A stretch of 64,000 bases of DNA from Thermoanaerobaculia bacterium (GCA_038245905.1 JBBRRY010000001.1:282951-346950), one strand, 5' to 3'. Numbered from the stretch's first letter, positions 343 through 46,715 are shown. Program-made: numbers and translations. Notes: a model not told the origin generated them from the sequence alone.

Positions 343-1200
343 ATGCGCCACCAGGTTCTCACCGCCCTGCTCCTCGCCGCCGGGGCCGCAAACGCCGCCT
401 CTCCATCGGGTTTCGGTCTCGATGTTCTCGTGAACGGGAGCCCCCGCCCCGAATTCGCCGCGCGGGGCACCGTCTACGTGGAGGCGCTGAAGGGGCACGA
501 CTTCTCGCTGAGGGTCACGAACCCCCTCGGAGTCCGGGTGGCCGTCGCGCTCTCCGTGGACGGCCTCAACACGATCGACGCGAAGCACACGTCCGCGATT
601 GACGCCCGCAAGTGGGTCCTCGACCCGTACCAGACGGTCGTGATTCCCGGCTGGCAGGTCTCCGGCGAGACGAGCCGGAAGTTCTTCTTCACGGGCGAAA
701 AGGGCTCGTACGGTGCGAAGCTGGGCGAGACGTCGAATCTCGGGGCGATCGAGGCGGTGTTCTTTCGGGAGAGGCTCCCGTACAGGGCTCAGCGGCCGTG
801 GAGCGGGGGAAAAGAGGAAGACAAGATTTCTTCGAATGAAAGAGGAAAAGGCGCCGGACGACTCGACGAGCCTCGGGTCGAGGCGGCCGCCGGCGCGGCG
901 CAGCTTCCCGCCCCGAGCGAGAGCGTCGCCCGCGACCATTCAAAGAAATCCTCTTCTCCCCCCCCCTCTTCTCTCGCCGACGAGATGGCCGCCACCGGCA
1001 TCGGCAGCCGGACGCGCTTTGACGTCACGCGCGTCAACCTCGACCTCGAGGATTCGCCGGCCGCGTCCGTGCGCCTTCGTTACGAGTTCCGGCCGCAGCT
1101 CGTCGCGCTGGGCGTCCTGCCCAGCGACCCGGATCCCGCCCGGATCGCCCGCCGCGAGCGTGCCCGCGGCTTCGAGGACTTCTGCCCCGAACCCCGCTGA
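343..1200 (+). CDS. Exported conserved hypothetical protein
   Basis: SD AAGGAG at 331-336, ATG 343, signal peptide MRHQVLTALLLAAGAANA; conserved-looking core VALSVDGLN...IPGW...FFFT...NLGAIEAVFFRE. Confidence 0.8.
   Translation: MRHQVLTALLLAAGAANAASPSGFGLDVLVNGSPRPEFAARGTVYVEALKGHDFSLRVTNPLGVRVAVALSVDGLNTIDAKHTSAIDARKWVLDPYQTVVIPGWQVSGETSRKFFFTGEKGSYGAKLGETSNLGAIEAVFFRERLPYRAQRPWSGGKEEDKISSNERGKGAGRLDEPRVEAAAGAAQLPAPSESVARDHSKKSSSPPPSSLADEMAATGIGSRTRFDVTRVNLDLEDSPAASVRLRYEFRPQLVALGVLPSDPDPARIARRERARGFEDFCPEPR
824..951. repeat. Dispersed motif pair (reverse copy 824-838, forward copy 937-951)
   Basis: AGATTTCTTCGAATG in a purine tract and CATTCAAAGAAATCC followed by a pyrimidine tract, both inside CDS 343-1200. 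Confidence 0.7.
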
Positions 1201-1216
1201 GCCCCGAAACTCTCCC

Positions 1217-1266
1217 GGCTCTCCTTCGTATGCGTAAAGGATAGATTCCGCTTACGAAGGAGAGCC
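1217..1266 (+). promoter_or_regulatory. 18-bp stem-loop covering the SD of the M16 peptidase gene
   Basis: GGCTCTCCTTCGTATGCG (1217-1234) pairs with CGCTTACGAAGGAGAGCC (1249-1266), one mismatch, 14-nt loop. The right arm contains GAAGGAG just upstream of ATG 1272. Confidence 0.6.
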
Positions 1267-10147: not shown

Positions 10148-11526
10148 CGCGTCCCGCTCCGTCGACGGCCCTTCGTGAGGGGATTCCCACGCTCGCCGCG
10201 AGCGCCAGGGAACTCGCGGCGCGGCGGCCGAGCCCGCCCTGGCTGCAGAAGCTGCGGACGTCCGCCCTCGCCGAGTTCGAGGCGCTCGGCTTCCCGTCGA
10301 CGAACGACGAGGACTGGCGCTTCACGAACCTGGCACCCCTGGCCCGGACCGCCTTCGCGCTTTCTCACGACGACGTCTCCCTCGCCGAGCGGACCGCGGC
10401 GCTCGAATTGGAAGCGCGGCTTGGACCGTTGGGACTCTCGTCGCCGGAGCCCCGGATCGTGTTCGTGAACGGGCGTCTTCTGAGGCGATCTCCGGGCAAT
10501 CTCACCGCCGCGATTCTCTTCGAGTGTATGAAGGACGTTCTCGCGAGATCGCCGGAGCTTGTCGAACGCGCCCTCGTTGCGCACGCGGCCGAGAGAGACT
10601 CTTCGAAGGACTTCTTTGGCGCTCTCTCTGATGCTTTTCTCGACAACGGCGCGGTCCTGCACGTGCCGGCCGGCGCCCATCTCGAAGAACCTCTCTTCAT
10701 CCTCCATGTCGCAACGCCGCCGGGCTCCTCGGAAGCGCCCCGAATGGTGCATTCACGCAGTCTCTTCACATTCGAAGAAAACTCTTCCGCAACCGTGATC
10801 GAGGCGTATCTGGGATCGAGCGGCTCGAGCTTCACGAACAGCCGCACCGACGTCACGCTCGCGAGGGGCGCCCGCCTCCAACACGTCACGCTTCAGCTGG
10901 AGGGCCCCGACGCGTTTCACGTCGGCCGGCTCGCCGTGACGCAGGCAGCGGCCTCCCACTCCACGTCTCATGTCTTCTCGTTCGGGGGAAAGCTCGCCCG
11001 GAACGAAGTCGCCATCACCCTCTCGGGCGAGGGCGCCTTTGGGGAGCTGAACGGCCTGTTCTGCGCCGCCTCTTCCCAGCACGTCGACTGCCATACGCTC
11101 ATCGACCACGCCCTGCCCCGCGCCTCGAGCGTCGAGCTGTACAAGGGCGTCCTCGACGGCACGGGCCGCGGCGTCTTCGACGGCAAGATCCTCGTGCGCG
11201 CCGGCGCCGCCCGCACGGACGCGCGCCAGACGAATCGCAACCTCGTCCTCTCCGACAGCGCCCTCGTCGACAGCAAGCCCCAGCTCGAGATCCACAACAA
11301 CGACGTCCGCTGCACGCACGGCTCGACGACCGGGCGCCTCGACGCCGACGCCGTGTTCTACCTGCGCTCGCGCGGCCTCTCGCCCGAGGCGGCTCGGGCG
11401 CTCCTCACATACGCGTTCGGCAGCGAGCTGATCGAGAAAGTGCCGTCCGCCGACGTGCGGGCTTTTCTCGAAAACCATCTGCGCGCCTGGCTGCCCGCGA
11501 ACCTCGCCGCTCCGGAGGCCCGATGA
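10144..11526 (+). CDS. sufD: Fe-S assembly protein SufD
   Basis: [39 protein letters not shown]. Confidence 0.95.
10596..10783. repeat. Dispersed motif pair inside sufD (reverse 10596-10609, forward 10769-10783)
   Basis: AGACTCTTCGAAGG and CATTCGAAGAAAACT, degenerate copies; the DNA between them is visibly richer in A/T-ending codons. Confidence 0.5.
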
Positions 11527-13598: not shown

Positions 13599-15087
13599 CG
13601 GGCTCCGGTCTCCGCAGAGACAGCAGCCATCCTGTTCCGAACGCGATCGTGGAGCCGATGAGGGAGTACCAGGGCCACGCGATCGCCTTGCCGAGCGGGA
13701 ACGGGATCCAGCCCTTCGAGCCGAGCCACAAGACGAACATGAAGACGGCGGATGTTGCGATGCCGATCATCGCGTCTGTCTGAGTCGCCTTCTTCGCCCA
13801 GAGGGCAAGGAGGAAGCCTCCGAGGAGTCCGCCCGCGGTGACGCTCGCGAGACCGAGCGCGACCTGCACGGCCGGGACGTTCTGCGGCAGGCGCGAGAAC
13901 CCGACGGCGAGAGCGGCGAGAACGATCGTCCAGAAGAGGGTGAGCAGCTTGCCGAGAACGAGCCCGCGCCTTCCCTCCACGTGCTTCCTACCCATTAGGG
14001 GCGCGACGATGTCCATCGCGAGGGCCGACGCGAGCGAGTTGAGCGCGGACGACTCCGAGCACATCGCGGCAGAGAAGATCCCGGCGACGAGCCAGGCAGA
14101 GACGAACGGCGGCAGGCTCGTCACGATGAACGTCGGCAGGATCGCGTCCGAGGACGCGAACCCGCCCGGCCCGACGACGCGCCCGCCGTAGAACGCGAAC
14201 ATCCCGACGCCGAGCGCGAGGAACAGCGTGAACTGCAGGATCACGAGGACGCCTGAGCCGATGAGGGCCTTCTGCGCGTCGCGCAGGCCGCGGCACGCCA
14301 ACAATCTCTGGACGATCAGCTGGTCGGCGCCGTGGGACGCCATGGCGAGGACTGCCCCACCTATGATTCCGGCCCACAGCGTGTACGGTTCGGAAAGATT
14401 CTTTGAAAGGTTAAAGAGCGAGACGGGTCTGCCGAGCTCCGAACACCTTCTAAGAATCTCCTCCCATCCCCCTCCGAATGAATGGAGGAGCACCCAAAGA
14501 GCCATCGTCGCGCCCGAGATGTACACGAAGACCTGGATGAGGTCGATCCAGATCACGGCCTTGATGCCGCCGACGTACGTGTAGAGCGCCGTCGCGGCCG
14601 CGAGAATCAGGATGGCGACCCAGACGGGGATCCCGAGGATAAGGGCGATTGGGATCGCGGGCACCGCGAGGCGGACGCTCGCGGCCATCACCCGCGTGAC
14701 CATGAAGATGACGGACGTGAACCGCCGCGCGCCGACACCGAAGCGGCGCTCGAGGAGCGCGTACGCCGTCGTAATCTCTCCGTGGAAGTATCCAGGCAGG
14801 AGCAGGAACGACACGGCGATCCGCCCGATCAGGTAGCCGAACGCGAGCTGCAGGAACGTGAAGCCGGTCCGGTACGCGTCGCCCGGCACGGAGAGAAAAG
14901 TCAGGGCCGATGTCTCCGTCGCGACGATGGACGCCATGACGGCCCACCACGGCATGGCGTGGCCGCCCAGGAAATAGTCCTTCGCGTCCTTCTGGCCCTT
15001 TCCGAGCCAGGCGCCGAGCACGTTGATACCGGCGAGGTACAGCGCGATCGCGATGAGCGTCGGCAGCCCGAGGGAAATCCCTTCCAT
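13582..15087 (-). CDS. Sodium:solute symporter (SSS/SLC5 family)
   Basis: ATG 15087; DYFLGG...SIVATETSALTFLSVPG, GGIKAVIWID, GADQLIVQRLLAC; about 13 TM segments. Confidence 0.92.
   Translation of the reverse strand: MEGISLGLPTLIAIALYLAGINVLGAWLGKGQKDAKDYFLGGHAMPWWAVMASIVATETSALTFLSVPGDAYRTGFTFLQLAFGYLIGRIAVSFLLLPGYFHGEITTAYALLERRFGVGARRFTSVIFMVTRVMAASVRLAVPAIPIALILGIPVWVAILILAAATALYTYVGGIKAVIWIDLIQVFVYISGATMALWVLLHSFGGGWEEILRRCSELGRPVSLFNLSKNLSEPYTLWAGIIGGAVLAMASHGADQLIVQRLLACRGLRDAQKALIGSGVLVILQFTLFLALGVGMFAFYGGRVVGPGGFASSDAILPTFIVTSLPPFVSAWLVAGIFSAAMCSESSALNSLASALAMDIVAPLMGRKHVEGRRGLVLGKLLTLFWTIVLAALAVGFSRLPQNVPAVQVALGLASVTAGGLLGGFLLALWAKKATQTDAMIGIATSAVFMFVLWLGSKGWIPFPLGKAIAWPWYSLIGSTIAFGTGWLLSLRRPEPATSRA
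14396..14459. repeat. Dispersed motif pair inside the SSS gene (reverse 14396-14410, forward 14446-14459)
   Basis: AGATTCTTTGAAAGG and CCTTCTAAGAATCT followed by a C/T tract. Confidence 0.7.
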
Positions 15088-21100: not shown

Positions 21101-21455
21101 GTTCGAGATGGTCGTGCCGTCGAAGGACCTCGGCCGGACCGACGGCCCCGCCGAGACGCTCCTCAAGGGCACGATGGACCTCGTCTTCGAGGAGGACGGC
21201 GTCTGGTACATCGTCGACTGGAAGTCCGACGTCGTCGGCGACGGCCTCGCGGGCCTCGTCGCGCACTACGCGCCGCAGGTTCGGCACTATCGGCGCGCCT
21301 GGGAGCGCCTCACCGGGCAGAGGGCCAAGGCCGGACTCTTCTTCATGGACACGGGGCACCTCGAGTGGCTGGTCGAAGAAGGAAAAGGAGAAGAGGAGAC
21401 TTCTTTGAAGGTGAAGAGGGACGGGCCCCGGCAAGGCTCGCTGTTCGGCGAATGA
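18153..21455 (+). CDS. addA: AddA-like UvrD helicase-nuclease
   Basis: AGAGSGKT, VTFTRKAA, VDEFQDT, VGDPKQSIYRFRRAD, HRAKGLE, YVAATRA; C-terminal GTMDLV...VDWKS nuclease. Confidence 0.9.
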   Translation: MTPKRSDLAPDAAARDLVRTSLDTTLLVEAGAGSGKTTMLVERILALLLSGTAEPENIAAVTFTRKAASNLRRRFQTALEEAARLEPNPERRARAASALSALDRVTVGTIDSFCATLLGERPLEAGVDPAALRVELQEAKEFRARFFREYAGRAAESGGLLTDLLRLGVRMRELEETFDLLAEYRDVTVVKADPLPLPDFVMERAVVEDYLDRTLPWVPPVPLAAGRDDLQNALIKAREARELPEYQTPVGFTRLLVELRKATKGTHYKWGDSALGKRVSDEFVILRRDVIKPALTEWQVALHERMMGVLEPGLQELAQALPREGRYTYADLLLATRDLLRDFPAVRRAFSARFTRILVDEFQDTDPLQAEVLLYLSSDDSEEKDTSRLIPRPGALFVVGDPKQSIYRFRRADISAYMDFRRRITAAGGRVVLLTANFRSVPALTAAVNAAFRPPVFPNVPDDRQAAYAELMPARADARPTSGVFHLISRPGADEGSEGGNAVDVARFVRWAVDAEWKISPDGKEQPARFRDFLILTRAREHIDEYARAMEDLGIPVDVSGSRALPISRGLAVLRPLLAAAQDPDDSVAIVAFLAGPLCGVDDDALYAFRRAGGRFSYLAPPPSGSDPRILQGLDLLSRARTDVRALPAGAALGSIADRMGLVARLAAGRQGRTASGNLLKVLALARRLSGNGLSFGDVVARLAEDAPDLDLEEMSVEPVDGDSVRLMNLHRAKGLEAPIVILAELSNWRKADPRRHVARGVSGSRGWFTAGYNALLPGRQNVWMVTAAPRDWDSRKAEEIAFENAEKTRLLYVAATRARDTLVVSLRGVKPELGAWGALRGITRELPHAVADFRPSAPSKAPGLAAAFKEVPSRVAAARAAASAPSFGVTTVTALAKKEGPRAPSPAEEARGSAWGRVLHQILEAAMRTSGLDLEPLATNLMRDEEVAPDRLDDVLRVAASVTESDLWARALKSPKRFVEVPFEMVVPSKDLGRTDGPAETLLKGTMDLVFEEDGVWYIVDWKSDVVGDGLAGLVAHYAPQVRHYRRAWERLTGQRAKAGLFFMDTGHLEWLVEEGKGEEETSLKVKRDGPRQGSLFGE

Positions 21456-21845
21456 GAAGGGCCACCGTTCTCGCCGTGATTCTCGCGGCCGGCTGCGCGT
21501 CGTCCGACTGGGCGAAGACCGAGAGCGTGCCGGGCGGCAAGCTCTACCTCCCAAAGCTCTACGCTCCGCTCCTCCCCGGCTCGATCTATCCAGACAGGAA
21601 GACGCCCCTACCGCCGAAGGGCCGCCCGGCGATCGTCGTCGTCTGCCCGGCGAAAGGCGACTGCCGGAAGAGAGAGATCCTCGATCAGGCGGCGCAACGT
21701 GGCCTCGTCGTCCTCGTCACCCGGAGAGCCGACGCCGCAATTGCCGCCCGGCCCGAGGTGGATGTCGCGCGGACCGGGATTCTCATCGTAGCCGCCGCTT
21801 CGCTGAAGGCTGAGCCCTCTCCCTCTTCCCCTTGTAAGAAAATCT
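21397..21845. repeat. Dispersed motif pair (reverse 21397-21411 at the addA 3' end, forward 21830-21845)
   Basis: AGACTTCTTTGAAGG in a long purine tract; CCTTGTAAGAAAATCT in a pyrimidine tract. Confidence 0.65.
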
Positions 21846-29475: not shown

Positions 29476-29489
29476 AGCCCGGCGCGACC

Positions 29490-32174
29490 CTACATCCCCG
29501 CCTGCGGCCGGAGGTCGATCGTCGGCTTCGGCTCGTAGTGATTCAGGAAGTCGTTCACGCTCTCCTGCTGCGCGGCCTTGAAGGCGCCGCGAAGCTGGAT
29601 CTGTTCGAGCGACTGCGCGAGATAGCGCGAGCCTCCCATGTACTTCGGCGACTTGTCCTTGAAGAACGCCTCGACCTCCGCCCGGTGAGCGGCGTCGCTG
29701 AAGCCCGAAGCGAGCATCGGGAAGCGGGCGGGCGACTCGCGCGGGAGACGCGCGACGATCCGGTCGAAATTCGCCTGCAGGAACGTCCACGCCTGCCCTC
29801 GCGTTTCCCGGTCCGTCGCGATCTCCCGGAGGATCGCGTTCGACTCGCGCGCGTCGAAGTCCTCCGACAGCGTCGCGTTGAGCGCGGCCGGGACGACCGT
29901 CGGGTCGTGGAATCGGCCGAGCGCCGAAAGGAGGCGCACGCGCTCGCGGCGGTCCACGGCCTTCTTCGCCTGGGCGCGAAACTCCTGGAAAAGCTCCATG
30001 TCGCCGTGCCGCGCGGCGACGTCGAGGACGGAGGGCGCCATCAGAGCGTCGACCGCGCCCCGGTCCTTCAACCAGGCGTTCGCGAGGCGCATCGCGTCGG
30101 CCACGAGAGCCGGCTCGTCGCCCTCGTTCGCGACGAAGGGGACGAGCTCCCCGCGCAGAAGTTGCGTGTCCTCGTCCTCTCCAGGCTTCGCTTTCCAGCC
30201 GAGGGCGTGCGCGCGCGCGCCGAAGACATCGCTCACGAACCGGCGATACCGCGGGCGCATCGCATCGGTGACGAGAAGATCGCGCGGCGCTGCGGCAATC
30301 TTCTGGATCGCCTCGACGACCGGCCGGTCGGGGTCGTTCGCGAACACCGGCACGAGCGCGAGCGCCGTCGCCATCGGGACGTCGCCGCTTCGCGCGAGGG
30401 CGGCCACGTCCGAAAGCGTCGCGACGCGCTCCGACACGGTCAGGTGCCTGCCGCTGTCGGCGAGGATCTTTCCGAGCATGCTGCCCGCGTAGAGAACGCG
30501 GTAGTAACCCGCACCGGCATTCGCGAAGACACGCGCGGGGCAGGCGCCCGGAAGCGCCATCTCGCCCGCTGGCTCCATGAGGAGCATGCAGGTCTTCTCG
30601 GACCCGGGGTCCCCGGTGCGCGCGCAGACGGGCACCCGCCATGTCTCCTTCGTCGATCCCGTCGAACCGGTCGGGAGGAAGCGCTTCTGCGAGAGGAGGA
30701 GCTTCGGCGCGCCGCCCGTGCACACGAGCTCGGCCGTCACGAGAGGGACGCCCGGCTGGTCGAGGAACGAGCGGAAAGCCGGAATGACCGCGGGCGTCTG
30801 CGTCGCCTCCGCGATCGCGGCCACGAAGTCGTCGGCCGTCGCCGTCCCCCAGGCGTAGGCCCTCAGGTAGCGCTGGATACCCTTCCGGAAGCCCTCCTCG
30901 CCGACCCAGCCCTCGAACATCTCGATGACGGCGGCGCCCTTCTGATACGTGATTCCATCGAACGCGCTCACGATGTCGTCGTCTCCTTCGATCGGCTGAC
31001 GGATGCGCCGCGCCGTGACGAGCGAGTCCTGGTCCATCGCGCCCGTCCGCGACGCCGCGCGCTGGACCGCCCAGCTCCATTCGGGCTTCCAGCGATCGAC
31101 GATCTTCGAGCCCATCCACGTCGCGAACGCCTCGTTGAGCCAGATGTCGTTCCACCACGCCGTCGTGACGTAGTCGCCGAACCACTGGTGTGCCGTCTCG
31201 TGCGCGCAGACGCTCGCGTACGCGCGGCGGAAGCGGATCGTCTCGTCGGCGGGCTTCGCGAGGAGGAGGCTCGAGGAATACGTCACGAGCCCCGCGTTCT
31301 CCATGGCGCCGAAGCCGACGGTCTGCGGGATCACGAGGTGGTCGAGCTTCTCGTAGGGATACGGGATGTCGAAGTACGTCTCGAGCACCTCGAGGATCGG
31401 GCCCGTGGAGGCGGCGGCCCAGCGAGCCTCGGCCGCGCGGCCCTTCGGGACGATCATCCTCACCGGCGTCTTGTTGCGGCCGGCGACACCCGCGTTCACG
31501 ACGTCGAAGGGGCCGACGCCGAACGCGACGAGATAGCTCGGGAGAGGCTTCGTCTCGCCGAAGACGAACTTCCGCCCGCCGTCCGCATCAGCGGCCTCCG
31601 ACACGACCGGCGTGTTCGCGACCGCGATCGCTCCCTTCGGGGCGTGGATCGTGAGCTGCCAGGGCGTCTTGTATGAGGGCTCGTCGAAGCAGGGAAACAC
31701 GCGCCGCGCGTAGATCGCCTCGAAGTGGCTGAAGGCGTACCAGTCGGCGCCTTCCTTCTGGCGAAACATGCCTTCCGTGTCCTTCGACTCGATGCGTCCC
31801 GAATACCTGAGGTCGATCTGCCAGAGACCGGGAGAAAGACTTCTTTGAAAGGTGAGACCGACGTAGTTGCTGCCACTCGCGGCCGCGGCGGCGGGGACCG
31901 CCTCGCCCCCTCCCACGGGGTGCGCGGACGCCGACTTCACGTCCAGCTCCTTTGCGTTCAACCAGACCGCGCCCGTCTCCACTTTCAAAGAAATCTCTAT
32001 CGCGATCTTCCCTTCGAACGACTCCTTCGCCGGGTCGATCCACAGCTCGGCGGCGTAGCGCACGGGCGCGGCGCCAGCAGGGAGTCTGAGCTTCGGAGGC
32101 GCGGGGGACTCCGCGTGGACGAGAGCGCTGAATCCGAGCACGGCGGAGAGAAAGACCGAGCCGAGTCTGCTCAT
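29490..32174 (-). CDS. M1 family aminopeptidase with ERAP1-like C-terminal domain, exported
   Basis: GAMEN, HETAH-x18-E (WLNE), YQKG; signal peptide. Confidence 0.94.
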   Translation of the reverse strand: MSRLGSVFLSAVLGFSALVHAESPAPPKLRLPAGAAPVRYAAELWIDPAKESFEGKIAIEISLKVETGAVWLNAKELDVKSASAHPVGGGEAVPAAAAASGSNYVGLTFQRSLSPGLWQIDLRYSGRIESKDTEGMFRQKEGADWYAFSHFEAIYARRVFPCFDEPSYKTPWQLTIHAPKGAIAVANTPVVSEAADADGGRKFVFGETKPLPSYLVAFGVGPFDVVNAGVAGRNKTPVRMIVPKGRAAEARWAAASTGPILEVLETYFDIPYPYEKLDHLVIPQTVGFGAMENAGLVTYSSSLLLAKPADETIRFRRAYASVCAHETAHQWFGDYVTTAWWNDIWLNEAFATWMGSKIVDRWKPEWSWAVQRAASRTGAMDQDSLVTARRIRQPIEGDDDIVSAFDGITYQKGAAVIEMFEGWVGEEGFRKGIQRYLRAYAWGTATADDFVAAIAEATQTPAVIPAFRSFLDQPGVPLVTAELVCTGGAPKLLLSQKRFLPTGSTGSTKETWRVPVCARTGDPGSEKTCMLLMEPAGEMALPGACPARVFANAGAGYYRVLYAGSMLGKILADSGRHLTVSERVATLSDVAALARSGDVPMATALALVPVFANDPDRPVVEAIQKIAAAPRDLLVTDAMRPRYRRFVSDVFGARAHALGWKAKPGEDEDTQLLRGELVPFVANEGDEPALVADAMRLANAWLKDRGAVDALMAPSVLDVAARHGDMELFQEFRAQAKKAVDRRERVRLLSALGRFHDPTVVPAALNATLSEDFDARESNAILREIATDRETRGQAWTFLQANFDRIVARLPRESPARFPMLASGFSDAAHRAEVEAFFKDKSPKYMGGSRYLAQSLEQIQLRGAFKAAQQESVNDFLNHYEPKPTIDLRPQAGM

Positions 32175-32250
32175 TCGCGGACTTTACGATGAAATTTGCC
32201 ACGCCCCTATTGCGATAGCATCGTCGGCCAATGACCATTCAAAGAAATCT
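31837..32250. repeat. Dispersed motif cluster (reverse 31837-31852; forward 31982-31996 and 32236-32250)
   Basis: AGACTTCTTTGAAAGG, CTTTCAAAGAAATCT, and CATTCAAAGAAATCT followed by CCCTTTCTTCTCCTCC. Confidence 0.75.
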
Positions 32251-36369: not shown

Positions 36370-36424
36370 GCGCTCGTTGTCCTCCGCGATTGCGTCCCAG
36401 TATAGGACGCGCCGTCCGCGCCCC

Positions 36425-37996: not shown

Positions 37997-38030
37997 ACCC
38001 GATTCTCGCCTACAATCACGGGACACTCTC

Positions 38031-38699: not shown

Positions 38700-38721
38700 G
38701 TATTGAAAATCGCGCCGTTCT

Positions 38722-39312: not shown

Positions 39313-39341
39313 TTCATGTGATGCCTCCCTGAAGGAAATGC

Positions 39342-39458
39342 AGACTTCTTAGATGGTGAATACGGAAAAAGGCACAGACGGGTTTCCTTCTCGGCGGCCC
39401 CTGTTCCTTTCTAAGAAATCCCCTCTTCTCTTTCCCCTCTTTACCTTTTAAGAAATCT
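39342..39458. repeat. Dispersed motif cluster (reverse 39342-39356; forward 39407-39421 and 39444-39458)
   Basis: AGACTTCTTAGATGG, CTTTCTAAGAAATCC and CCTTTTAAGAAATCT; each forward copy is followed by CCTCTTCTC. Confidence 0.75.
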
Positions 39459-41129: not shown

Positions 41130-44100
41130 CTTTCCCCGAGCGCTTTCCGGAATCGCTCGGGCCCGACTTCGCGCGTGAGGGTGCGTTCCAGAAAACCCGG
41201 GTCCGGATGATGCTCGGTCTCGGGATACGGATACGCCGACATCGCGTGGAACGGCCAGGGACCGTAGGACTGCCCCGTCACGGTGTTCTTGTCGAAGTCC
41301 TTGTCCCAGCCGTCGGAGACGAGGATCCAGTCCCGGTGCCACCCCGCTGCGAGCGGCGGCAGCTTCGAGGCGTCGTACGTGATCCGGATCGCATCGCCTC
41401 CCTTGAACGCGACCCAGCGGTCGTCGGCCTTCGAGAGGAATTCCATCACGTCGCCGAGGCGCGTCACCCGGCCCGGAATGTCCTCCCAGCGGGGCCGCGT
41501 CGAGACGTCGCCGTGGTCGAAGACTTCGGGGCCGTCCGGTGTCTCACGATACCCCTGCGGGAATCCGCGCTCGGAAAGCACGGCGGCCACCGGGGAGAGA
41601 AGCGTCGTGACGACGTCCACGGCCGGGTCGTTCACCGTGACGAGCGCCTCGTCCCAGAAGATCGCCATCGTCGTCCGGATGCGCACGCGCGGGTCGTTCG
41701 GATCGAAGAGGCCCGTGAGGTCGACCGGCATCGTCTTCGTCTTCCCGGCGGGGAACCCGAACGATTCCATCGCGACCTTCCAGCCGCCCCGACCGTCCGG
41801 CACTTCGAGGACCGGCGGGAAATGCGCGAGGTCCTTCCTCTGCGAGAGCGAGACGTTGATCGACGTGTCCGTGTAGAAGATCCAGCCCGAGAGGAAGAGG
41901 ACCACGCGATCCCCCGCCGCCACGTCCCCGAGATCGAGAACGAGGGCATGCTCCTTTCGGACGCCCTGATAGAACGTTTCGGGCCCGGGTCCCACGTACA
42001 CCTGATCGCGGCTGGCCAACCGGGCGGTCACGTCTTCAATGCGGCCCGAGGCGTCGGAGAATGCGGCGCGCACGGGGCGCGGATGCGTGACGGTGAAGAG
42101 CTTCTTCTCCGTCACGCCCGGAATCGTCCGCTCATTCGGCACGACGACCGTGCCCTCGGGATGATCGACCGCCATCAGCGTGGCCTCGTCGAGGAATGCG
42201 ACCTCCCACAGCTCCTCGGTGTAGTCGATCTCGAGCCGGCCGGCGGCGTCCGGCCGAAGCGCCGCGCCGTCGATGAACAGCCACTCGCGCGCGTCCCAGC
42301 CCGCGAGGTGGACGCCGTCATAAAGGAGTCCGATCGGAGAACGTCCGAGCGCGTCGGAAATGAAGCTCCAGACGCCGGTCTCGCCGTTCCGCGCGTAGAC
42401 GAACGGACACGAGCCCTTGAGCTGCTGGACTTCCCTGACGACCGACCTCGCCTTCTGGTCGAAGAGGTTCTGGGGTACGCCGTTCGTCCAAGTAACCCGT
42501 ACGACGTCCGCTTTCGCGTGCGGACCGAGGCCGACGTGTGTCGGCAGGAGGCTCGCGAGACGCACCACGTAGAGGTTCCCCGCCTTCACCTCGACGAGAC
42601 TTCCGACGCCCTGCCTGTTCACCTTTCCCGAACCGGTGGGCAGGCCTTCGAGAACGACCACCAGCCAGCCGTTCGCGTTCCCGCCGTCGTTCAGGAGGAC
42701 GCTCGTCTTTCCGCCGGCCGAGACGAGGAGGTCGAGATCTCCGTCCTTGTCGACGTCGAGGGCGAGGAGCGCGTCGACTGCTGCCAGGTTTGAGGAGAGG
42801 GAATAAGAAGAAGATTTCTTTGAAGGTGAAGAGAAGACAGGCCAGTCCGCGAACTTTCCGCCTCCGAGATTCCTGAACGCGTGGAGGCCGTCCGAAGAGG
42901 CCGCGACGACGTCCGGGAATCCGTCGTTGTCGAAATCGGCGAGGACAACCGCCCGCATCGCGGCCGAAGCGCCCGCAGCATCGAGCCCGCTCCCCGCGCC
43001 TTCAAAGAAATTCCCATCTCCATTTCCGATCAACAGCCGGAGCCCTTTGGACGTCGCAACGACGATGTCCGGAATCCCGTCCGCGTTCACGTCCTCGACC
43101 GCGACGTCCGTCGCGCCCGAGACGTGGAGGGGCACGTTCCTGAGGACGCCCGAGCGCAGATTGAGGCGCAGAACAAGATCGCCCTTCGCGTCGATCGTCA
43201 CGAGATCAGGATCGCCGTCCCGGTCGACGTCGAAGACGACAACCTTCTTCGAATGGAACGTGGCATCGCCCGTCTTCGCCGTCACGTCGGAAAATGTTCC
43301 GTCGAGATTGTTGCGGAGAAGCTGATCGGGCTTGCTCCCACCATAAAGGTAGACGTCGAGATCGCCGTCGAGGTCGTAGTCGAAGAAGACAGCGGAGACG
43401 AAGGGCGCCGGAACTGGATACTGCGCAGCCGCTCCCGAGTTGGCGAGGTCCACCCTTCTCAGAAGTCTTTCCACGCTCTCCTCGGACCCGGCGGGCGCGC
43501 GAAACGTCACCGGAATCGCGGCGGCCGGTCCCGAGCGAAGCCCCTCTTCGACCTTCGAAGCAAATCTCTCGATCGGCAGGCCCACGACCTGCGTGAAGAC
43601 CTCGGCGAGCGATTGCTGGTACCGGGGCGTGACCCGAAGGACGTTCTCGAGAACGCGGACCTTGACCGTCGCGCCTTTCACGTCGCCTCTCCCCGCGAGC
43701 GTCCGGGCCTCGGAGAGAAACTGGCGGGCGCGCGCGTCGCCGTCGGAGATGAGAGGGTCCAGCTCGGTGACGCCCTTCGACAAGGCAGCCGCGTCTCCCG
43801 CCTCGCCCTCGAGGACGAGAAGCTTCAACCGCGCCGGCAGATTCGAGGGCGCACGGCCGACGATCTCGGCGAGGCGTGTCTTCCGGGCGGCCTTCTCGGC
43901 GGGCGAAGAGGACGAGTCCGTCTCGACGCTTCGCGCGAATCGCCAGCGCGACTCGAGATCGCGCGGGTTCAGGGCGGCCGCCTTCTCGAGGGCGGCGCGG
44001 ACGCCGGCGGGACGGTTCCGTTCGTTCTCGAGAGCCGCGCGAATCGCGTACAGATCCGCCCGCTCACCGAGGGCCAGCGCCTTGCCGAGGAGAGACTCGG

Positions 44101-44398
44101 CGCCCGCAAGATCCTTCTCACGCAAGGCCGCGACGGCGCCGTTCGCGAGAGGCAGGGCTTCTCCGGGCAGGAGCTCGGCGAGACGCGCGAACGTCGCGCG
44201 GGCTTCTTTCGGCTTGTCCTCCTCGAGCTGCGCAAGGCCGACGTTCCGGAGAGACAGGATCTTCGAAGAAGAAGATATTTCTGCTGAAGAGGAGGACCAA
44301 GAGAACGCGATCGCGGCGGCGAGTGCGATGGCGGCCCAGCGGCAACGTTCGAAGAGAAACCTTTTCTTAGAAAGGGACTGAAAAAGGAGGAGGTTCAT
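41126..44398 (-). CDS. Large TPR + FG-GAP/VCBS + ASPIC/UnbV protein with an extra C-terminal domain
   Basis: N-terminal hydrophobic segment and TPRs, DYDLDGD/DVDRDGD/DFDNDG repeats, HVGLG...WTNG, then KGSCPFVY...GWDKDFD domain. Confidence 0.88.
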   Translation of the reverse strand: MNLLLFQSLSKKRFLFERCRWAAIALAAAIAFSWSSSSAEISSSSKILSLRNVGLAQLEEDKPKEARATFARLAELLPGEALPLANGAVAALREKDLAGAESLLGKALALGERADLYAIRAALENERNRPAGVRAALEKAAALNPRDLESRWRFARSVETDSSSSPAEKAARKTRLAEIVGRAPSNLPARLKLLVLEGEAGDAAALSKGVTELDPLISDGDARARQFLSEARTLAGRGDVKGATVKVRVLENVLRVTPRYQQSLAEVFTQVVGLPIERFASKVEEGLRSGPAAAIPVTFRAPAGSEESVERLLRRVDLANSGAAAQYPVPAPFVSAVFFDYDLDGDLDVYLYGGSKPDQLLRNNLDGTFSDVTAKTGDATFHSKKVVVFDVDRDGDPDLVTIDAKGDLVLRLNLRSGVLRNVPLHVSGATDVAVEDVNADGIPDIVVATSKGLRLLIGNGDGNFFEGAGSGLDAAGASAAMRAVVLADFDNDGFPDVVAASSDGLHAFRNLGGGKFADWPVFSSPSKKSSSYSLSSNLAAVDALLALDVDKDGDLDLLVSAGGKTSVLLNDGGNANGWLVVVLEGLPTGSGKVNRQGVGSLVEVKAGNLYVVRLASLLPTHVGLGPHAKADVVRVTWTNGVPQNLFDQKARSVVREVQQLKGSCPFVYARNGETGVWSFISDALGRSPIGLLYDGVHLAGWDAREWLFIDGAALRPDAAGRLEIDYTEELWEVAFLDEATLMAVDHPEGTVVVPNERTIPGVTEKKLFTVTHPRPVRAAFSDASGRIEDVTARLASRDQVYVGPGPETFYQGVRKEHALVLDLGDVAAGDRVVLFLSGWIFYTDTSINVSLSQRKDLAHFPPVLEVPDGRGGWKVAMESFGFPAGKTKTMPVDLTGLFDPNDPRVRIRTTMAIFWDEALVTVNDPAVDVVTTLLSPVAAVLSERGFPQGYRETPDGPEVFDHGDVSTRPRWEDIPGRVTRLGDVMEFLSKADDRWVAFKGGDAIRITYDASKLPPLAAGWHRDWILVSDGWDKDFDKNTVTGQSYGPWPFHAMSAYPYPETEHHPDPGFLERTLTREVGPERFRKALGER
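42812..43567. repeat. Dispersed motif cluster (reverse 42812-42826; forward 42999-43013, 43454-43468, 43552-43567)
   Basis: AGATTTCTTTGAAGG (perfect consensus), CCTTCAAAGAAATTC, CCTTCTCAGAAGTCT, CCTTCGAAGCAAATCT. Confidence 0.7.
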
Positions 44399-44526
44399 CA
44401 GAAGGGATTATGGCCGGAACGCGGCTACCCGACTCGCGCCGGGAATTCGTGCGTCACGCCGGGCGAGTCGGCCCTCTTCACCTTCTAAGCAAGTCCTTCT
44501 TCCCTTCCGTATTCCTAAGCAGATCT
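44358..44526. repeat. Dispersed motif cluster (reverse 44358-44375; forward 44481-44496 and 44511-44526)
   Basis: TTTCTTAGAAAGG, CCTTCTAAGCAAGTCC and ATTCCTAAGCAGATCT with C/T tracts; they bracket the intergenic hairpin 44429-44471. Confidence 0.65.
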
Positions 44527-46715
44527 CTCCTCTCTTCTCTTCCCTCGACCAGCGTGACGAGCGTGCCGCCTGGCACGTCATGGAGCGTGTCGCGGCGGCC
44601 GTCCGGCCAGCGAATCTCGATGGAGTCCGCCATTTTCGCGCCTCCGAGACCAAACAGAAGATCGTGGGAGGACTGCGACAGGAACGAGGATCCGGCGCGC
44701 ACCTCGCGGAGCTGCACCTTCCCGTTCACGCGGAGTTTCACGACGGCGCCGAGCGCGTCTCGGTTCATGCCGTGATCCACAGAAAGCCGGACGACGACGC
44801 GGCCCCCGCCCTCTCCCCATGCGTTCCGATAGAGATGGAGGGGCCCGCGGAAGCACGAGAGCACGATCTCCGGAGCCCCGTCGCCGTCGAGGTCCGCGTA
44901 TGCGAGGCCGCGCGTGTCCTCGAGCGTGTCGAAACCTTCCACGAACGCCCGCTCCTCGAACGTGCCGTCGCCGCGGTTCCAGAAGAGCTTCTTCGGCGTC
45001 CGGGACGCCATGCCGTTCGCCCCGAAGTCGATTCCGCCCCAGACGCCGTCGTGGAAGTTCACACCGTCGCGGCCCATCGCGTTCCAGAAGGCGATCTCGT
45101 CGTCTTTCCCGGTCGTCGCCCGGAACATTCCGTTCACGACGAGAAGGTCCTCGCGGCCCTTGCCGGCGAGGTCCACGAACTCCGTGCCCCACGCCCATCC
45201 GCCGTCCGCGACGCCCGCCGCCTCCGACGTGCGCTCGAACTTCAGGCCGCCGAGATTGCGAAAGAGCCCGTCCCCGCGCGACCTTCGCCCCATGACCTTC
45301 GCCATGTGGGGGCGCACGAGGCCGGCCAGCGGCACGGGCGGCATCGGCCACCGGGAATCCCGGAGAATCCACTGATAGGGCGTCCAGTAGTCGGCCACGT
45401 GGAGGTCCCACCTGCCGTCGCCGTCGTAGTCGCCCCAGGCGACGCCCATCCCGTAACCTTCGTCTTCGGTGCCGCTCGTCTTCGCGATGTCCACGAACTT
45501 CGGATGCCCAGGCGTCGAGCGGTTCTCGAAAAACGCGTTTCGCCCGAAGTCGTTCGCGACGTAGAGATCGTCGTCCCCGTCGTCGTCGGCGTCGCAGGCC
45601 TCCGCGGCGAAGCCCCATCCCGCATCGCCGAGGCCCGAAGCCGCCGTCTCGTCCACGAAGAAGGGATGCCCGGCTCGTTCGACGTTCCGGAAGAAGCGGC
45701 TGCCTCCCCCGTTCCGACCGTCGTACGCAGGCCCGGTCGCGCGCGCGTCGCCGTAGGCCGCCACGAAGAGATCCACGCGCCCGTCGCGGTCGGCGTCGAA
45801 GAACACGGCGGACGTGAACGGTCCCGAGAGGCCGGCGAGGCCCCAGGCCTCCGTGACGTCGCAGAATTTCCCGTGGCCGAGGTTCTTCAGGACGCGGCTC
45901 GGAGAGACGTGGTTCGAGAGGAACAGCTCCGGCAACCCGTCGCCGTCCAGGTCGGCGGCGACCCCGCCCGACGCCTCCATCTCCGGCAGGAGGTCGAGCC
46001 CGGAGCCCGCGGTCGCGTCGCGAAAGTGTCCGGTCCCGTCGTTCAGGAACAGCCTTGGGTGCCTGTTCGGGACGATCACGTCCACGAAGCCATCTCCGTC
46101 GACGTCCACGAGGACGACGCCGGGGTGGTGATGCGTCGCGGGCAGGCAGAAGTTCGTCGCCTCCACGGGATCGAGGGACTCGTGCCGCGCGACGAGGCCG
46201 CGAGCCGCGGCTTCCTCGAAGAGGTGAGGGACTCCGCGCTGGATGGCGGCGGGCCCGTTCACCGCGAGGGCCGAGCGCAACTGCCAGCTCCCAGCCGGAG
46301 AAGACTCGGAGGGATTTCTGCGAAAGAAAACGAGATCGAAGAGTAGCCTCGCGGCCACGCGTTCGGACGAATCCGCGCGCGCCCAGCCCTGCAGGCGGAA
46401 TTCGACCCGAACGAGGATGTCCGATGAGGACTTCTTCTGAAGGTCGATGATTCGGACGGCCGAGTCACACCGAAAGGCGCATGCGCTCCGCAACGCTTCC
46501 GAAAGCTGCCATAAGGACGGCTCCTCAGCCGAGTCCGAAGTCCCGGCGCTCCTCTCCCTCTTCCCCCCAAAGAATTCTTCTCTCAGCTCTTCGACCTTCG
46601 CCGATACGTCGTGGGAGTAGTCCTCGAGGCTGGGCATCGGCCGCGTGCCGCCGCAACCCGCGGCAAGAGTCGCCACGGCGATGAGCTCGAACAAGGCGAT
46701 GGGGTGCCGTGCCAC
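44478..46715 (-). CDS. CRTAC1-like lipoprotein (N-terminal extra domain + FG-GAP + ASPIC/UnbV)
   Basis: GTG 46715; lipobox LAAGC; DxDGDG repeats; NRDALGA...AGSSFLSQ...FGLG...IRWPDG. Confidence 0.88.
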   Translation of the reverse strand: MARHPIALFELIAVATLAAGCGGTRPMPSLEDYSHDVSAKVEELREEFFGGKRERSAGTSDSAEEPSLWQLSEALRSACAFRCDSAVRIIDLQKKSSSDILVRVEFRLQGWARADSSERVAARLLFDLVFFRRNPSESSPAGSWQLRSALAVNGPAAIQRGVPHLFEEAAARGLVARHESLDPVEATNFCLPATHHHPGVVLVDVDGDGFVDVIVPNRHPRLFLNDGTGHFRDATAGSGLDLLPEMEASGGVAADLDGDGLPELFLSNHVSPSRVLKNLGHGKFCDVTEAWGLAGLSGPFTSAVFFDADRDGRVDLFVAAYGDARATGPAYDGRNGGGSRFFRNVERAGHPFFVDETAASGLGDAGWGFAAEACDADDDGDDDLYVANDFGRNAFFENRSTPGHPKFVDIAKTSGTEDEGYGMGVAWGDYDGDGRWDLHVADYWTPYQWILRDSRWPMPPVPLAGLVRPHMAKVMGRRSRGDGLFRNLGGLKFERTSEAAGVADGGWAWGTEFVDLAGKGREDLLVVNGMFRATTGKDDEIAFWNAMGRDGVNFHDGVWGGIDFGANGMASRTPKKLFWNRGDGTFEERAFVEGFDTLEDTRGLAYADLDGDGAPEIVLSCFRGPLHLYRNAWGEGGGRVVVRLSVDHGMNRDALGAVVKLRVNGKVQLREVRAGSSFLSQSSHDLLFGLGGAKMADSIEIRWPDGRRDTLHDVPGGTLVTLVEGREERRDLLRNTEGKKDLLRR
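46312..46578. repeat. Degenerate motif cluster (reverse 46312-46326 and 46428-46443; forward 46565-46578)
   Basis: GGATTTCTGCGAAAG, GGACTTCTTCTGAAGG, and CCCCAAAGAATTCT in a C/T tract. Confidence 0.45.

What the first reader, a model, noticed from the sequence alone, without database searches (positions are those of the whole stretch)
824..46578. Motif copies form reverse-then-forward pairs 35-420 bp apart
Seen: nine pairs share the geometry [purine tract AGATTTCTTWGAAGG]...[CCTTCWAAGAAATCT pyrimidine tract]: 824/937, 10596/10769, 14396/14446, 21397/21830, 31837/31982, 39342/39407, 42812/42999, 44358/44481 and 46428/46565. I found no forward-then-reverse pair at that range. The interiors are unrelated coding or intergenic DNA, often with more A/T-ending codons. 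Inference: fixed polarity with variable spacing suggests two oriented sites that loop, wrap or load a complex, or long-range pairing in ssDNA/RNA, rather than independent sites.
Basis: partly seen in the sequence, partly recalled or inferred. Interest (0 to 1): 0.8.

Follow-up and report, generated by a model that had tools for sequence, protein, structure and literature searches.

The report
Facing motif pairs written into genes
A genus of GC-rich soil and sediment bacteria keeps hundreds of copies of an AT-rich DNA word, nearly always as two copies facing each other about 60-300 bases apart, even inside essential genes, and no described repeat type explains it.

Summary
In the whole 3.8 Mb genome, reverse-then-forward (facing) neighbour pairs 51-400 bp apart number 161, against 19 of the opposite polarity. 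The same geometry recurs in other genomes of the genus.

Each arm is a ~45 bp asymmetric unit: pyrimidine tract, CC-TTC-D-AAGAAATC, pyrimidine tract.

- **Arms:** the two arms of a pair match each other no better than arms of different pairs.
- **Spacing:** it shows no 10.5 bp phasing, drifts between species, and is the same inside and between genes.
- **Interiors:** they are unrelated host sequence.
- **Origin:** in one gene compared with motif-free orthologues, both arms replace ordinary codons with no length change. The pair persists at the same codons across 20 species.

These results argue against RNA or ssDNA pairing, MITE, REPIN (no RAYT) and invertible switches. They favour two independently read duplex-DNA sites used together by an unknown factor.

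This scan has flagged the same element before on other DNA of this genome and its relatives. New here are the polarity statistics and the tests for arm covariation, phasing and spacing drift. What reads the sites, and what they do, remains unknown.

The parts
825..836 (-). Left arm (core 12-mer) of facing pair 825/939, spacing 114. It has a purine tract on its outer side.
   Evidence: PWM score 30.0; sequence.
939..950 (+). Right arm of pair 825/939, followed by a pyrimidine tract.
   Evidence: PWM score 29.2.
10596..10610 (-).
   Evidence: Scores below 10 in this orientation. Gene family.
10771..10782 (+). Right arm whose facing partner is weak.
   Evidence: PWM score 25.4.
14396..14407 (-). 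Left arm of pair 14396/14448, spacing 52, inside a sodium:solute symporter gene on the minus strand.
   Evidence: PWM score 13.8; Pfam SSF.
14448..14459 (+). Right arm of pair 14396/14448.
   Evidence: PWM score 13.0.
21398..21409 (-). Left arm of pair 21398/21832, spacing 434, at the 3' end of the AddA-like helicase-nuclease gene.
   Evidence: PWM score 26.1; Pfam.
21832..21843 (+). Right arm of pair 21398/21832, inside the next ORF.
   Evidence: PWM score 14.7.
31838..31849 (-). Left arm of pair 31838/31984, spacing 146, inside the M1 aminopeptidase gene (29490-32174, minus strand).
   Evidence: PWM score 25.3. It sits at the same codons in 20 species. Orthologues from another family carry ordinary codons of the same length there.
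31984..31995 (+). Right arm of pair 31838/31984.
   Evidence: PWM score 31.1.
32238..32249 (+). Strong arm at the start of the FG-GAP lipoprotein gene. Its facing partner is missing in this genome. In many congeners a matching unit sits in the aminopeptidase signal-peptide codons across the divergent spacer.
   Evidence: PWM score 29.3. First alignment block shows the unit in L004, L006, L011-L014 and L016.
39343..39354 (-). Left arm of intergenic pair 39343/39409, spacing 66.
   Evidence: PWM score 17.1.
39409..39420 (+). Right arm of pair 39343/39409. A second direct copy lies at 39446-39457.
   Evidence: PWM scores 28.8 and 25.4.
42813..42824 (-). Left arm of pair 42813/43001, spacing 188, inside an FG-GAP repeat gene (41126-44398, minus strand).
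   Evidence: PWM score 32.5. Present in 19 of 20 aligned species.
43001..43012 (+). Right arm of pair 42813/43001.
   Evidence: PWM score 23.6.
43242..43253 (-).
   Evidence: PWM score 12.0.
43456..43467 (+). Right arm of pair 43242/43456. Another direct copy lies at 43554-43565.
   Evidence: PWM scores 19.5 and 13.6; partly conserved across species.
44361..44372 (-). Left arm of pair 44361/44483, spacing 122, straddling the junction of two minus-strand FG-GAP genes.
   Evidence: PWM score 16.3. This spacer is rich in indels between species.
44483..44494 (+). Right arm of pair 44361/44483.
   Evidence: PWM score 12.8.
46313..46324 (-). Left arm of pair 46313/46566, spacing 253, in a divergent spacer.
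   Evidence: PWM score 21.8.
46566..46577 (+). Right arm of pair 46313/46566.
   Evidence: PWM score 13.5.

Best explanation
Each pair is a composite, two-fold symmetric site on double-stranded DNA. It consists of two independently specified copies of one asymmetric unit of about 45 bp.

- **Unit:** about 17 nt of pyrimidine tract, then C-C-TTC-[A/G/T]-AAGAAATC, then about 25 nt of pyrimidine tract.
- **Arrangement:** the copies are inverted, with the CTCTTCACC side inward and the longer tract outward, 31-434 bp apart (median 119).

I infer that a sequence-specific factor, a protein or possibly a guide-RNA complex, recognises each arm on duplex DNA. I infer further that two bound arms work together, either as a symmetric dimer with a flexible connection or by sliding or tracking along the DNA between them. 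That would explain why orientation is strict while exact distance and helical phase are free.

The sites are kept at the same places across the genus, even at the cost of amino-acid changes. In the one gene compared with a motif-free outgroup they replace ordinary codons without a length change. I did not test whether host-level selection or a molecular drive maintains them.

Shown: geometry, independence of the arms, freedom of spacing, substitution in the tested gene, conservation, restriction to the lineage. Inferred: duplex-DNA reading by a factor and cooperation of the arms.

Function is open. I split it roughly evenly between two readings:
- a self-DNA signal of the DUS/USS type, spread by biased uptake or conversion;
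- an architectural or roadblock site for a lineage-specific DNA-binding protein.
For: - **Polarity:** 161 facing against 19 back-to-back neighbour pairs (p = 3e-29). 236 of 320 strong units have a facing partner, against 28 of 320 with a back-to-back one. Among neighbours more than 1 kb apart, +- dominates (142, against 29 -+), as expected if the genome is tiled by facing pairs.
- **Replication elsewhere:** among 76 anchor units from other assemblies, 54 have a facing partner and 4 a back-to-back one.
- **Arms independent:** identity between the two arms equals that of shuffled pairings (z = 0.9, -0.2, 0.7; variable core position z = 1.6).
- **Spacing free:** no 3-nt or 10.5-bp periodicity. 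The distribution is the same within genes (median 116.5, n = 100) and between genes (median 112.5, n = 42; p = 0.12). Spacing at orthologous loci differs between species, for example 138 against 84 and 141 against 112, while 28 of 32 loci keep both arms.
- **Not tied to transcription units:** intergenic pairs fall in tandem, divergent and convergent spacers as 29, 17 and 5, against 31.1, 14.6 and 5.3 expected from spacer length. Position along genes is even.
- **Substitution and conservation:** the aminopeptidase pair sits at the same codons in 20 species. In four orthologues of another family those codons are ordinary GC-rich ones of the same length. A second pair is kept in 19 of 20 species.
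- **Lineage restriction:** the exact core occurs 56-277 times in 24 of 24 other genomes of the genus and 0-4 times in 16 genomes of other genera. The 21-mer is found almost only in Thermoanaerobaculia/Acidobacteriota assemblies.
Against: - No reader was identified.
- The lack of helical phasing argues against the simplest protein-bridged small loop.
- The arms are complementary through their shared consensus, so a hairpin can form. Structure-based roles are therefore disfavoured, not excluded.
- Some differences between species look like mobile or slippage events rather than substitution. One compact intergenic pair is present in one species and replaced by a shorter sequence here, and one locus has a tandemly duplicated arm.
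- Copy number varies five-fold within the genus. That fits a spreading element better than a fixed set of host sites.
- No binding, expression or uptake data exist.
Confidence: 0.5

Rival explanations
1. DNA-uptake or other self-recognition signal spread by molecular drive, as for DUS and USS, but needing a facing pair. Fragments carrying the pair would be taken up or recombined preferentially, so motif-creating substitutions spread wherever proteins tolerate them. This is one of the two functional readings inside the best explanation. The confidence given here is for it alone.
For: - The motif is over-represented on both strands and is genus-specific.
- In the tested gene it replaces ordinary codons and changes amino acids.
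- Pairs are 5.6-fold enriched in spacers (42 observed against 7.4 expected) yet spread evenly along genes.
- Placement ignores transcription architecture.
- The unit has a strong core with weaker compositional flanks.
- ComEC is present in this genome and in 22 of 24 other genomes of the genus.
- Abstracts of PMC2817400 and PMC1939737 describe uptake sequences inside coding regions and their genomic over-representation (seen in the search listing).
Against: - No known uptake signal needs two copies in a fixed orientation (recalled, not tested).
- Density is about one unit per 5-10 kb, several-fold below DUS and USS (their densities are recalled).
- ComEC is equally present in the motif-free genera, so it says nothing.
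- Competence of these uncultured bacteria is unknown.
- A sister genus of the same family shows no comparable word in 400 kb, so no 'dialect' series was seen.
Confidence: 0.25
2. Long-range hairpin in RNA or single-stranded DNA. The purine arm would pair with the pyrimidine arm to form a 20-40 bp stem, which would act as an RNase III site, a bidirectional terminator or attenuator, or a replication-associated structure.
For: - The arms are inverted repeats, so any transcript carries the purine arm 5' and the pyrimidine arm 3'. Predicted folds of short pairs pair the arms (-25 to -64 kcal/mol).
- A pyrimidine-rich tail follows the 3' arm.
Against: - There is no excess complementarity between the arms of a pair over shuffled pairings in the core or either flank.
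- A 12-16 nt specific sequence is conserved, where any complementary sequence would do.
- Intergenic pairs show no preference for convergent or tandem spacers.
- 100 of 169 pairs lie inside genes, including essential ones.
- No Rfam family matches the pairs; only one tRNA was found in the window.
Confidence: 0.1
3. Terminal inverted repeats of a miniature mobile element (MITE- or REPIN-like), or of a domesticated transposase system. The facing polarity and the 60-300 bp size range would then be the signature of transposon ends.
For: - The same face always points inward, and the spacing range (5-95%: 54-293 bp) resembles MITE sizes (MITE sizes are recalled).
- One compact intergenic pair is present in one species and absent here, with about a 60 nt length difference. 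One locus has a tandem arm duplication.
- Copy number varies five-fold within the genus.
Against: - Interiors are unrelated host sequence; the only related ones among 156 belong to paralogous kinase genes.
- The arms in the aminopeptidase gene replace codons with no insertion relative to motif-free orthologues.
- The Y1/RAYT transposase was not found in this genome. It was found in 3 of 24 other genomes of the genus, against 8 of 9 in a motif-free family.
- Only two IS-type rve genes and one DDE fragment are present, with no units at their ends within 4 kb apart from one unrelated unit.
Confidence: 0.08
4. Recombination sites of an invertase (inverton or shufflon type). The segment between the arms would flip and so recode or switch off genes.
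For: - Inverted sites with fixed polarity flanking 30-430 bp segments, many of them intragenic, match the layout of invertons. Intragenic invertons are described in the abstract of 10.1101/2023.03.11.532203, seen in the search listing.
Against: - All 20 species are colinear across two intragenic pairs.
- Interiors encode conserved protein segments, such as the kinase catalytic core and the aminopeptidase N-domain.
- The variable central base is not matched between arms (z = 1.6).
- Spacing inside genes shows no significant 3-nt preference: 44, 25 and 31 for mod 3 = 0, 1 and 2.
- Single contigs of the likely source run span four pairs in the reference orientation, and no strand-changing joint between arms appears among the 15 best-supported joints listed; 332 further joints were not shown. 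This point is weak, because contigs drop rare variants.
Confidence: 0.04
5. By-product of coding or composition: a recurrent peptide motif or low-complexity tracts, with no DNA-level function.
For: - TTCGAAGAAATC can encode F-E-E-I. Near-matches in other genera are mostly of this form and exceed the reversed-pattern control 2-4 fold.
Against: - Units occur in all three frames and on both strands.
- They use codons that look rare for a 68% GC genome.
- They are 5.6-fold enriched in spacers.
- Synonymous positions are conserved across 20 species.
- The reversed-pattern control finds 0 exact cores in this genome against 135 real ones.
Confidence: 0.02

Closest known systems
DNA uptake sequences (DUS of Neisseriaceae, USS of Pasteurellaceae)
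   Same: A lineage-specific word, hugely over-represented on both strands and placed inside coding regions with amino-acid cost. It is enriched where constraint is low and has a strong core with weaker flanks. Abstracts of PMC2817400 and PMC1939737 were seen in the listing.
   Different: It works as a facing pair 60-300 bp apart; 74% of strong units have such a partner. The unit is longer, and its density is several-fold lower. Uptake bias is untested. No dialect was seen in the sister genus sampled.
REPINs / REP-BIME elements with RAYT transposases
   Same: [quoted passage not shown]
   Different: REPs are extragenic and each arm is itself a hairpin. Here 100 of 169 pairs are intragenic and the spacers are arbitrary host sequence. 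The cognate RAYT was not found in this genome and was found in only 3 of 24 other genomes of the genus.
Rickettsia palindromic elements (RPE)
   Same: Palindromic repeats that lie in frame inside protein-coding genes and are translated. The description is recalled; papers holding the term are listed but were not read.
   Different: RPEs are whole elements inserted into genes, adding residues. In the gene compared here the arms replace existing codons with no length change, and the interior is the gene's own sequence.
Invertons and shufflons (invertase sites, including intragenic invertons)
   Same: Inverted asymmetric sites flanking short segments, some inside genes (abstract of 10.1101/2023.03.11.532203, listing).
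   Different: No inversion was seen between 20 species or in contigs. Interiors are conserved coding sequence. About 170 pairs per genome is far more than known inverton sets (the comparison figure is recalled).
MITEs such as Correia elements
   Same: Terminal-inverted-repeat geometry and size range (sizes recalled).
   Different: There is no conserved interior. No insertion footprint appears in the gene tested. No candidate transposase is associated.
Type III restriction enzymes, which need two head-to-head sites at any distance (recalled, not tested)
   Same: Strict relative orientation of two asymmetric sites with free spacing and no helical phasing. This is explained there by one-dimensional communication along the DNA.
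   Different: Those sites are 5-6 bp and are not enriched as pairs in the host genome. The likeness is only in how orientation without phasing could arise.

Membership tests
REPIN / REP-RAYT | A cognate single-copy RAYT (Y1 transposase, PF01797) in genomes that carry the repeats. | tested here: not met
   No match in this genome. Matches in 3 of 24 other genomes of the genus, against 8 of 9 in family f2, which lacks the motif. The f2 tally includes the unpublished genome G025.
REPIN / REP-RAYT | Extragenic location. | tested here: not met
   100 of 169 pairs lie wholly inside one predicted gene. Gene calls come from my own codon-usage caller.
MITE | Copies share a conserved interior between the terminal repeats. 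| tested here: not met
   Among 156 interiors, the only matches are 10 between six kinase paralogues and 3 short ones.
MITE | Presence is an insertion relative to empty sites. | tested here: inconclusive
   There is no length change at either arm in the aminopeptidase gene against four outgroup orthologues. However, one compact intergenic pair differs between species by an indel of about 60 nt.
Rickettsia palindromic element-like in-frame insert | The element adds residues to the host protein. | tested here: not met
   The codon alignment shows the arms replacing existing codons one for one.
DUS / USS uptake signal | Genome-wide over-representation on both strands, specific to a lineage. | tested here: met
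   135 exact cores against 0 for the reversed control. 24 of 24 other genomes of the genus carry 56-277 copies; other genera carry 0-4. The out-of-genus counts include the unpublished genomes G025 and G030.
DUS / USS uptake signal | Motif-bearing DNA is taken up preferentially by competent cells. | not testable with these tools
   The bacteria are uncultured. ComEC is present but is equally present in motif-free genera.
DUS / USS uptake signal | A single copy is the functional unit. | tested here: not met
   74% of strong units have a facing partner, against 9% with a back-to-back one. 28 of 32 orthologous pairs keep both arms.
Inverton / shufflon | The segment between the inverted sites is found in both orientations. 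| tested here: inconclusive
   Twenty species are colinear at two pairs. Contigs of four runs show the reference orientation where they span pairs, and no strand-changing joint between arms appears among the 15 joints listed (332 not shown). Raw reads were not available.
Structured RNA / hairpin element | Compensatory changes keep the two arms complementary. | tested here: not met
   Arm-to-arm identity equals that of shuffled pairings (z = 0.9, -0.2, 0.7). No Rfam family matches.
Protein-bridged small DNA loop (operator pairs) | Spacing is phased with the helical repeat. | tested here: not met
   R = 0.086 (n = 169) and 0.041 (n = 96) at 10.5 bp. Spacing drifts between species.

The most novel reading that the evidence does not exclude
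This would be a new class of bacterial genome signal. A whole genus has rewritten hundreds of places in its chromosome, including the coding sequence of conserved enzymes, to carry two facing copies of a 45 bp asymmetric word. An unknown, lineage-specific machine reads them on duplex DNA and communicates between the two copies along the DNA rather than by looping. If the machine is an uptake or recombination system, this would be the first uptake-type signal outside Proteobacteria and the first that needs an oriented pair. If it is a chromosome-bound factor, it would be a sequence-specific architectural or roadblock system placed inside genes.
Probability: 0.4. Interest if true: 0.88.

Novelty: new variant of a known kind. 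Interest (0 to 1): 0.74.

Why it matters
Bacterial genomes rarely tolerate long non-coding signals inside genes. The known exceptions, such as uptake sequences and Chi, each revealed a machine that reads the chromosome.

Here a 45 bp signal is forced into conserved proteins and must come as an oriented pair. It persists across at least 29 species. That implies a strong selective force or drive, and a reader not yet known.

The geometry rules worked out here are strict orientation, free phase, a 60-300 bp window and independent arms. They narrow the kinds of machine to look for and give clear designs for binding and uptake experiments.

Tried and rejected
- **RNA evidence:** no RNA holder was listed among 13 runs, so expression could not be examined.
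- **Reads:** only assembled contigs were available. I laid four runs on window 29000-47000. Single contigs of the likely source run span the pairs at 31838/31984, 39343/39409, 44361/44483 and 46313/46566 in the reference orientation. No strand-changing joint between arms appears among the 15 best-supported joints; 332 more were not shown. One joint, 42836 to 44472 with 33 other letters, runs from just inside one left arm to just inside another right arm. I read it as a look-alike pair from another place or organism matching only at the arms.
- **Rfam:** only a tRNA was found in the window.
- **Autonomous element bracketed by facing units 0.45-4 kb apart:** the 17 candidates were ordinary genes. 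The two I read through had degenerate nearer partners.
- **Dialects:**
  - A 400 kb sample of a sister genus (G086) shows no coherent AT-rich k-mer family, while the same test on this genome returns the motif at once.
  - G108, the non-genus genome with the largest excess over control, has scattered single near-matches and no pairs.
  - This conflicts with earlier scan notes calling the element class-wide. Other genera may carry a different core that I did not look for.
- **Phages:** the six viral contigs holding the 19-mer are 30-36% GC, so I read them as chance matches.
- **Candidate readers:**
  - A T7-type RNA polymerase was not found, but the control genomes were silent too, so this says nothing.
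  - H-NS and Lsr2 domains were not found.
  - Rho is present.
  - IS630-type DDE was not found. Two rve genes and one DDE_Tnp_1 fragment look like ordinary IS remnants, with no units at their ends.
- **Regional restriction:** the first 100 of 174 exact cores in a three-contig genome of the genus (G020) are spread along 1.3 Mb with no obvious empty domain. The list was cut off.
- **Depletion in foreign DNA:** only 8 of 336 ten-kb bins are below 65% GC, too few to judge.
- **Literature:** 0 papers hold 'Thermoanaerobaculia' with 'inverted repeat'. One unrelated paper holds 'Acidobacteria' with 'DNA uptake sequence'.
- **Not attempted:** a whole-proteome comparison to find genes present in all genomes of the genus and absent from sister genera.

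Full report
**What the window and genome are.** The window is G000:C1:282951-346950 of a 3.80 Mb assembly in 113 contigs with 67.8% GC. Record titles of look-alike loci and earlier scan notes place it in Thermoanaerobaculia, Acidobacteriota. Its genes are ordinary:
- an M16 peptidase;
- a suf iron-sulfur operon;
- an AddAB-like helicase-nuclease pair;
- an M1 aminopeptidase;
- four FG-GAP/ASPIC proteins;
- a Ser/Thr kinase;
- an RND efflux pump;
- FeoAB;
- Ku.

The 15-mer of the finding, with up to 2 mismatches, matches 12 times against 0.05 expected; 0 of 100 shuffles reach 12. All nine listed pairs are present. The left arms at 10596 and 46428 are eroded and score below 10 with my weight matrix. 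A better left arm for 46565 lies at 46313. At score 12 or more the window holds 9 facing pairs 30-450 bp apart, 3 direct pairs and 1 back-to-back pair, which lies between two facing pairs.

**The unit.** Aligning the 286 genome-wide matches to TTC[A/G/T]AAGAAATC with up to 1 mismatch shows an asymmetric unit.
- About 17 nt of pyrimidine-rich sequence ends in C-C; the best copies read CTCTTCACC.
- The 12-mer core follows. Its fourth base is A, G or T and almost never C (53, 41, 41 and 2 exact copies for A, T, G and C).
- About 25 nt of pyrimidine tract follows the core.

On the other strand this reads as a long purine tract interrupted by TTTCTT.

**The polarity holds genome-wide.** With a weight matrix over core positions -4 to +14 and score 12 or more there are 707 units, against 122 in the reversed-sequence control.
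- Neighbours 51-400 bp apart are facing in 161 cases, back-to-back in 19 and direct in 26 and 21. Facing against back-to-back gives p = 3e-29.
- Of 320 strong units, 236 have a facing partner within 30-450 bp and 28 a back-to-back one.
- Among neighbours more than 1 kb apart the order +- dominates (142 against 29), as expected if the chromosome is tiled by facing pairs.
- The arrangement reads the same on both strands: purine arm first, pyrimidine arm second, with the CTCTTCACC sides inward.
- In an independent set of 76 anchor units from other assemblies, found by a 21-mer scan of one genome per species, 54 have a facing partner and 4 a back-to-back one.

**Spacing.** The 169 facing pairs span 31-434 bp, with median 119 and 5-95% range 54-293.
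- There is no 3-nt periodicity (R = 0.098) and no 10.5-bp periodicity (R = 0.086, p about 0.29; R = 0.041 for the 96 strongest pairs).
- The distribution is the same within genes (median 116.5, n = 100) and in spacers (median 112.5, n = 42; p = 0.12).
- At 32 orthologous loci compared between another species and this genome, 28 keep both arms, 2 keep only the left arm, 1 only the right and 1 neither. Spacing often differs, for example 149/143, 82/70, 138/185, 141/112 and 138/84. Some of these loci are the same G000 locus seen from several species, so they are not all independent.

**The arms are independent instances of one word.** I put both arms in the same orientation and compared them, then repeated the comparison with arms dealt out among pairs 500 times. 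Identity within a pair is not higher than between pairs: inner flank z = 0.9, core z = -0.2, outer flank z = 0.7, variable core base z = 1.6. So there is no compensatory change and no sign of recent copying of one arm from the other. Predicted folds do pair the arms, but only through the shared consensus.

**Where the pairs lie.** I used my own codon-usage gene caller, which gives 3164 genes covering 91% of the genome.
- 100 pairs lie inside one gene (135 expected at random), 42 are wholly intergenic (7.4 expected) and 27 straddle a gene end.
- Position along genes is even.
- The 51 pairs centred in spacers fall in tandem, divergent and convergent spacers as 29, 17 and 5, against 31.1, 14.6 and 5.3 expected from spacer length. 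They are therefore tied neither to promoters nor to terminators.
- Units occur in all three frames and on both strands of genes.
- Interiors are unrelated to one another. Among 156 interiors the only similarities are between six paralogous kinase genes, which share a pair 96 bp apart, plus 3 short matches.
- Interior GC is slightly higher than outside (0.694 against 0.679). GC3 is slightly lower (0.810 against 0.845, n = 51, p = 0.02).
- Pairs are mildly clustered along the genome, with a dispersion index of 1.43 in 20 kb bins.

**Conserved, and replacing ordinary codons in the gene tested.**
- All 29 genomes of the genus match the aminopeptidase region. In the 20 aligned loci, at 69-86% identity, both arms sit at the same codons. 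Their AT-rich codons are kept where the surrounding synonymous sites vary. Both arms are eroded together in two species, L015 and L020.
- In four orthologues from another family of the order (51-56% protein identity), the same codons are ordinary GC-rich ones with no length difference at either arm. For example, ATC GAC CTC GAT CTG TCG stands where the genus has ATT CGG ATT TCT TTG AAA. In this gene the arms therefore replace existing codons and change the protein.
- A second intragenic pair, 42813/43001, is kept in 19 of 20 species.
- In spacers the picture is more fluid. One compact pair is present in another species and replaced here by a sequence about 60 nt shorter. One locus has a tandemly duplicated left arm.

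**Lineage range.**
- The exact core occurs 135 times here and 56-277 times in each of the 24 other genomes of the genus sampled. It occurs 0-4 times in 16 genomes of other genera of the order, and the reversed control gives 0-1.
- With 2 mismatches on a 15-mer the genus gives 285-631 matches, against about 25 for the control. The two other genera of the same family give 13 and 52, against 8 and 20.
- A 400 kb sample of one of these genera has no coherent AT-rich word family, whereas the same test here returns the motif.
- These out-of-genus counts include the unpublished genomes G025 and G030. Leaving them out changes nothing.
- Earlier scan notes called the element class-wide. With this core I see it only in the genus.

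**What it is not.**
- **Not REPIN/REP.** The RAYT transposase was not found here. It was found in 3 of 24 other genomes of the genus, against 8 of 9 genomes of a motif-free family. Most pairs are also intragenic.
- **Not a MITE or an RPE-type insert.** Interiors are host sequence and the arms in the tested gene are substitutions.
- **Not evidently an invertible switch.** Twenty species are colinear, and contigs spanning four pairs show the reference orientation. Only contigs were available, so rare variants cannot be excluded.
- **Not an RNA family in Rfam**.
- **Not carried by GC-rich viral contigs**.

**Most likely mechanism.** Strict relative orientation, independent arms, a preferred but unphased and drifting distance, indifference to gene architecture and a long specific core point one way. 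I conclude that two duplex-DNA recognition sites are read by a sequence-specific factor and used together. The connection would be either a flexible symmetric dimer or one-dimensional communication along the DNA. The second resembles, from memory, how Type III restriction enzymes need head-to-head sites at any distance.

What keeps the sites may be host selection or a drive. The cost to proteins, the enrichment where constraint is low and the five-fold variation in copy number lean towards a drive of the uptake-sequence kind. The pair requirement, the lower density and the lack of dialects do not fit known uptake signals. ComEC is present but is uninformative. I give the paired duplex-site reading 0.5. 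Within it I see no basis to prefer the uptake or drive function over the architectural or roadblock function.

**Standing of this finding in the scan.** The same element was noted before on other pieces of this genome and in related genomes. Those notes already gave the facing pairs, the substitution into genes and the DUS/USS and REPIN comparisons. I re-tested those points. This report adds:
- the genome-wide polarity statistics and their replication in other genomes;
- the arm-covariation test;
- the phasing test and the spacing drift between species;
- the equal spacing in coding and non-coding DNA;
- the neutrality towards spacer type;
- the RAYT anti-correlation;
- the genus-level range.

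Noticed in passing
genome contigs C11:59929, C24:11446, C24:27681, C24:31341, C25:29576, C35:12813: Six paralogous Ser/Thr kinase genes carry the facing pair at the same place in the catalytic domain, 96 bp apart. The arms encode D-F-L-E-G-E-E and F-E-E-I. The pair was evidently inherited through gene duplication.
   Followed up: partly
window 32150-32250 and loci L004, L006, L011-L014, L016: In many congeners the aminopeptidase signal-peptide codons carry a unit facing the strong unit at window 32238, across the divergent spacer. This genome has lost that arm, so it is a natural one-arm loss.
   Followed up: partly
L152 against G000:C5:~95000, and L155 against G000:C25:~42600: A compact intergenic pair (cores about 36 bp apart) is present in one species and replaced here by a sequence about 60 nt shorter. 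At another locus the left arm is tandemly duplicated in the other species. These are indel-type changes, unlike the substitutions seen inside the tested gene.
   Followed up: partly
window 39423: Contigs of two other runs carry an extra TTCT in the pyrimidine tract just after the arm at 39409-39420. The tract length therefore varies between related strains (table 4).
   Followed up: no
window 4253-4737: A MazF/PemK-type toxin gene (4402-4737) lies behind a small upstream ORF (4253-4414) that could be its antitoxin.
   Followed up: no
window 15136-21452: Two large adjacent genes have PD-(D/E)XK nuclease and UvrD helicase domains (AddB/AddA- or AdnAB-like). The left arm of a facing pair sits at the 3' end of the second gene.
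   Followed up: no
window 32231-46259: A cluster of four FG-GAP/ASPIC (UnbV) repeat protein genes holds five or six of the window's facing pairs, which is denser than the genome average.
   Followed up: no
window 24820-26907 and 26990-27613: ORFs of 696 and 208 residues have good coding signal but no Pfam family at E up to 1e-5.
   Followed up: no
window 58118-59041: A Ku homologue is present, suggesting non-homologous end joining. No LigD was looked for.
   Followed up: no
window 325-1200: My gene caller's ORF here has no Pfam match and contains the pair 825/939. A short ORF starting at 985 may be the real gene, in which case the pair would be intergenic.
   Followed up: no
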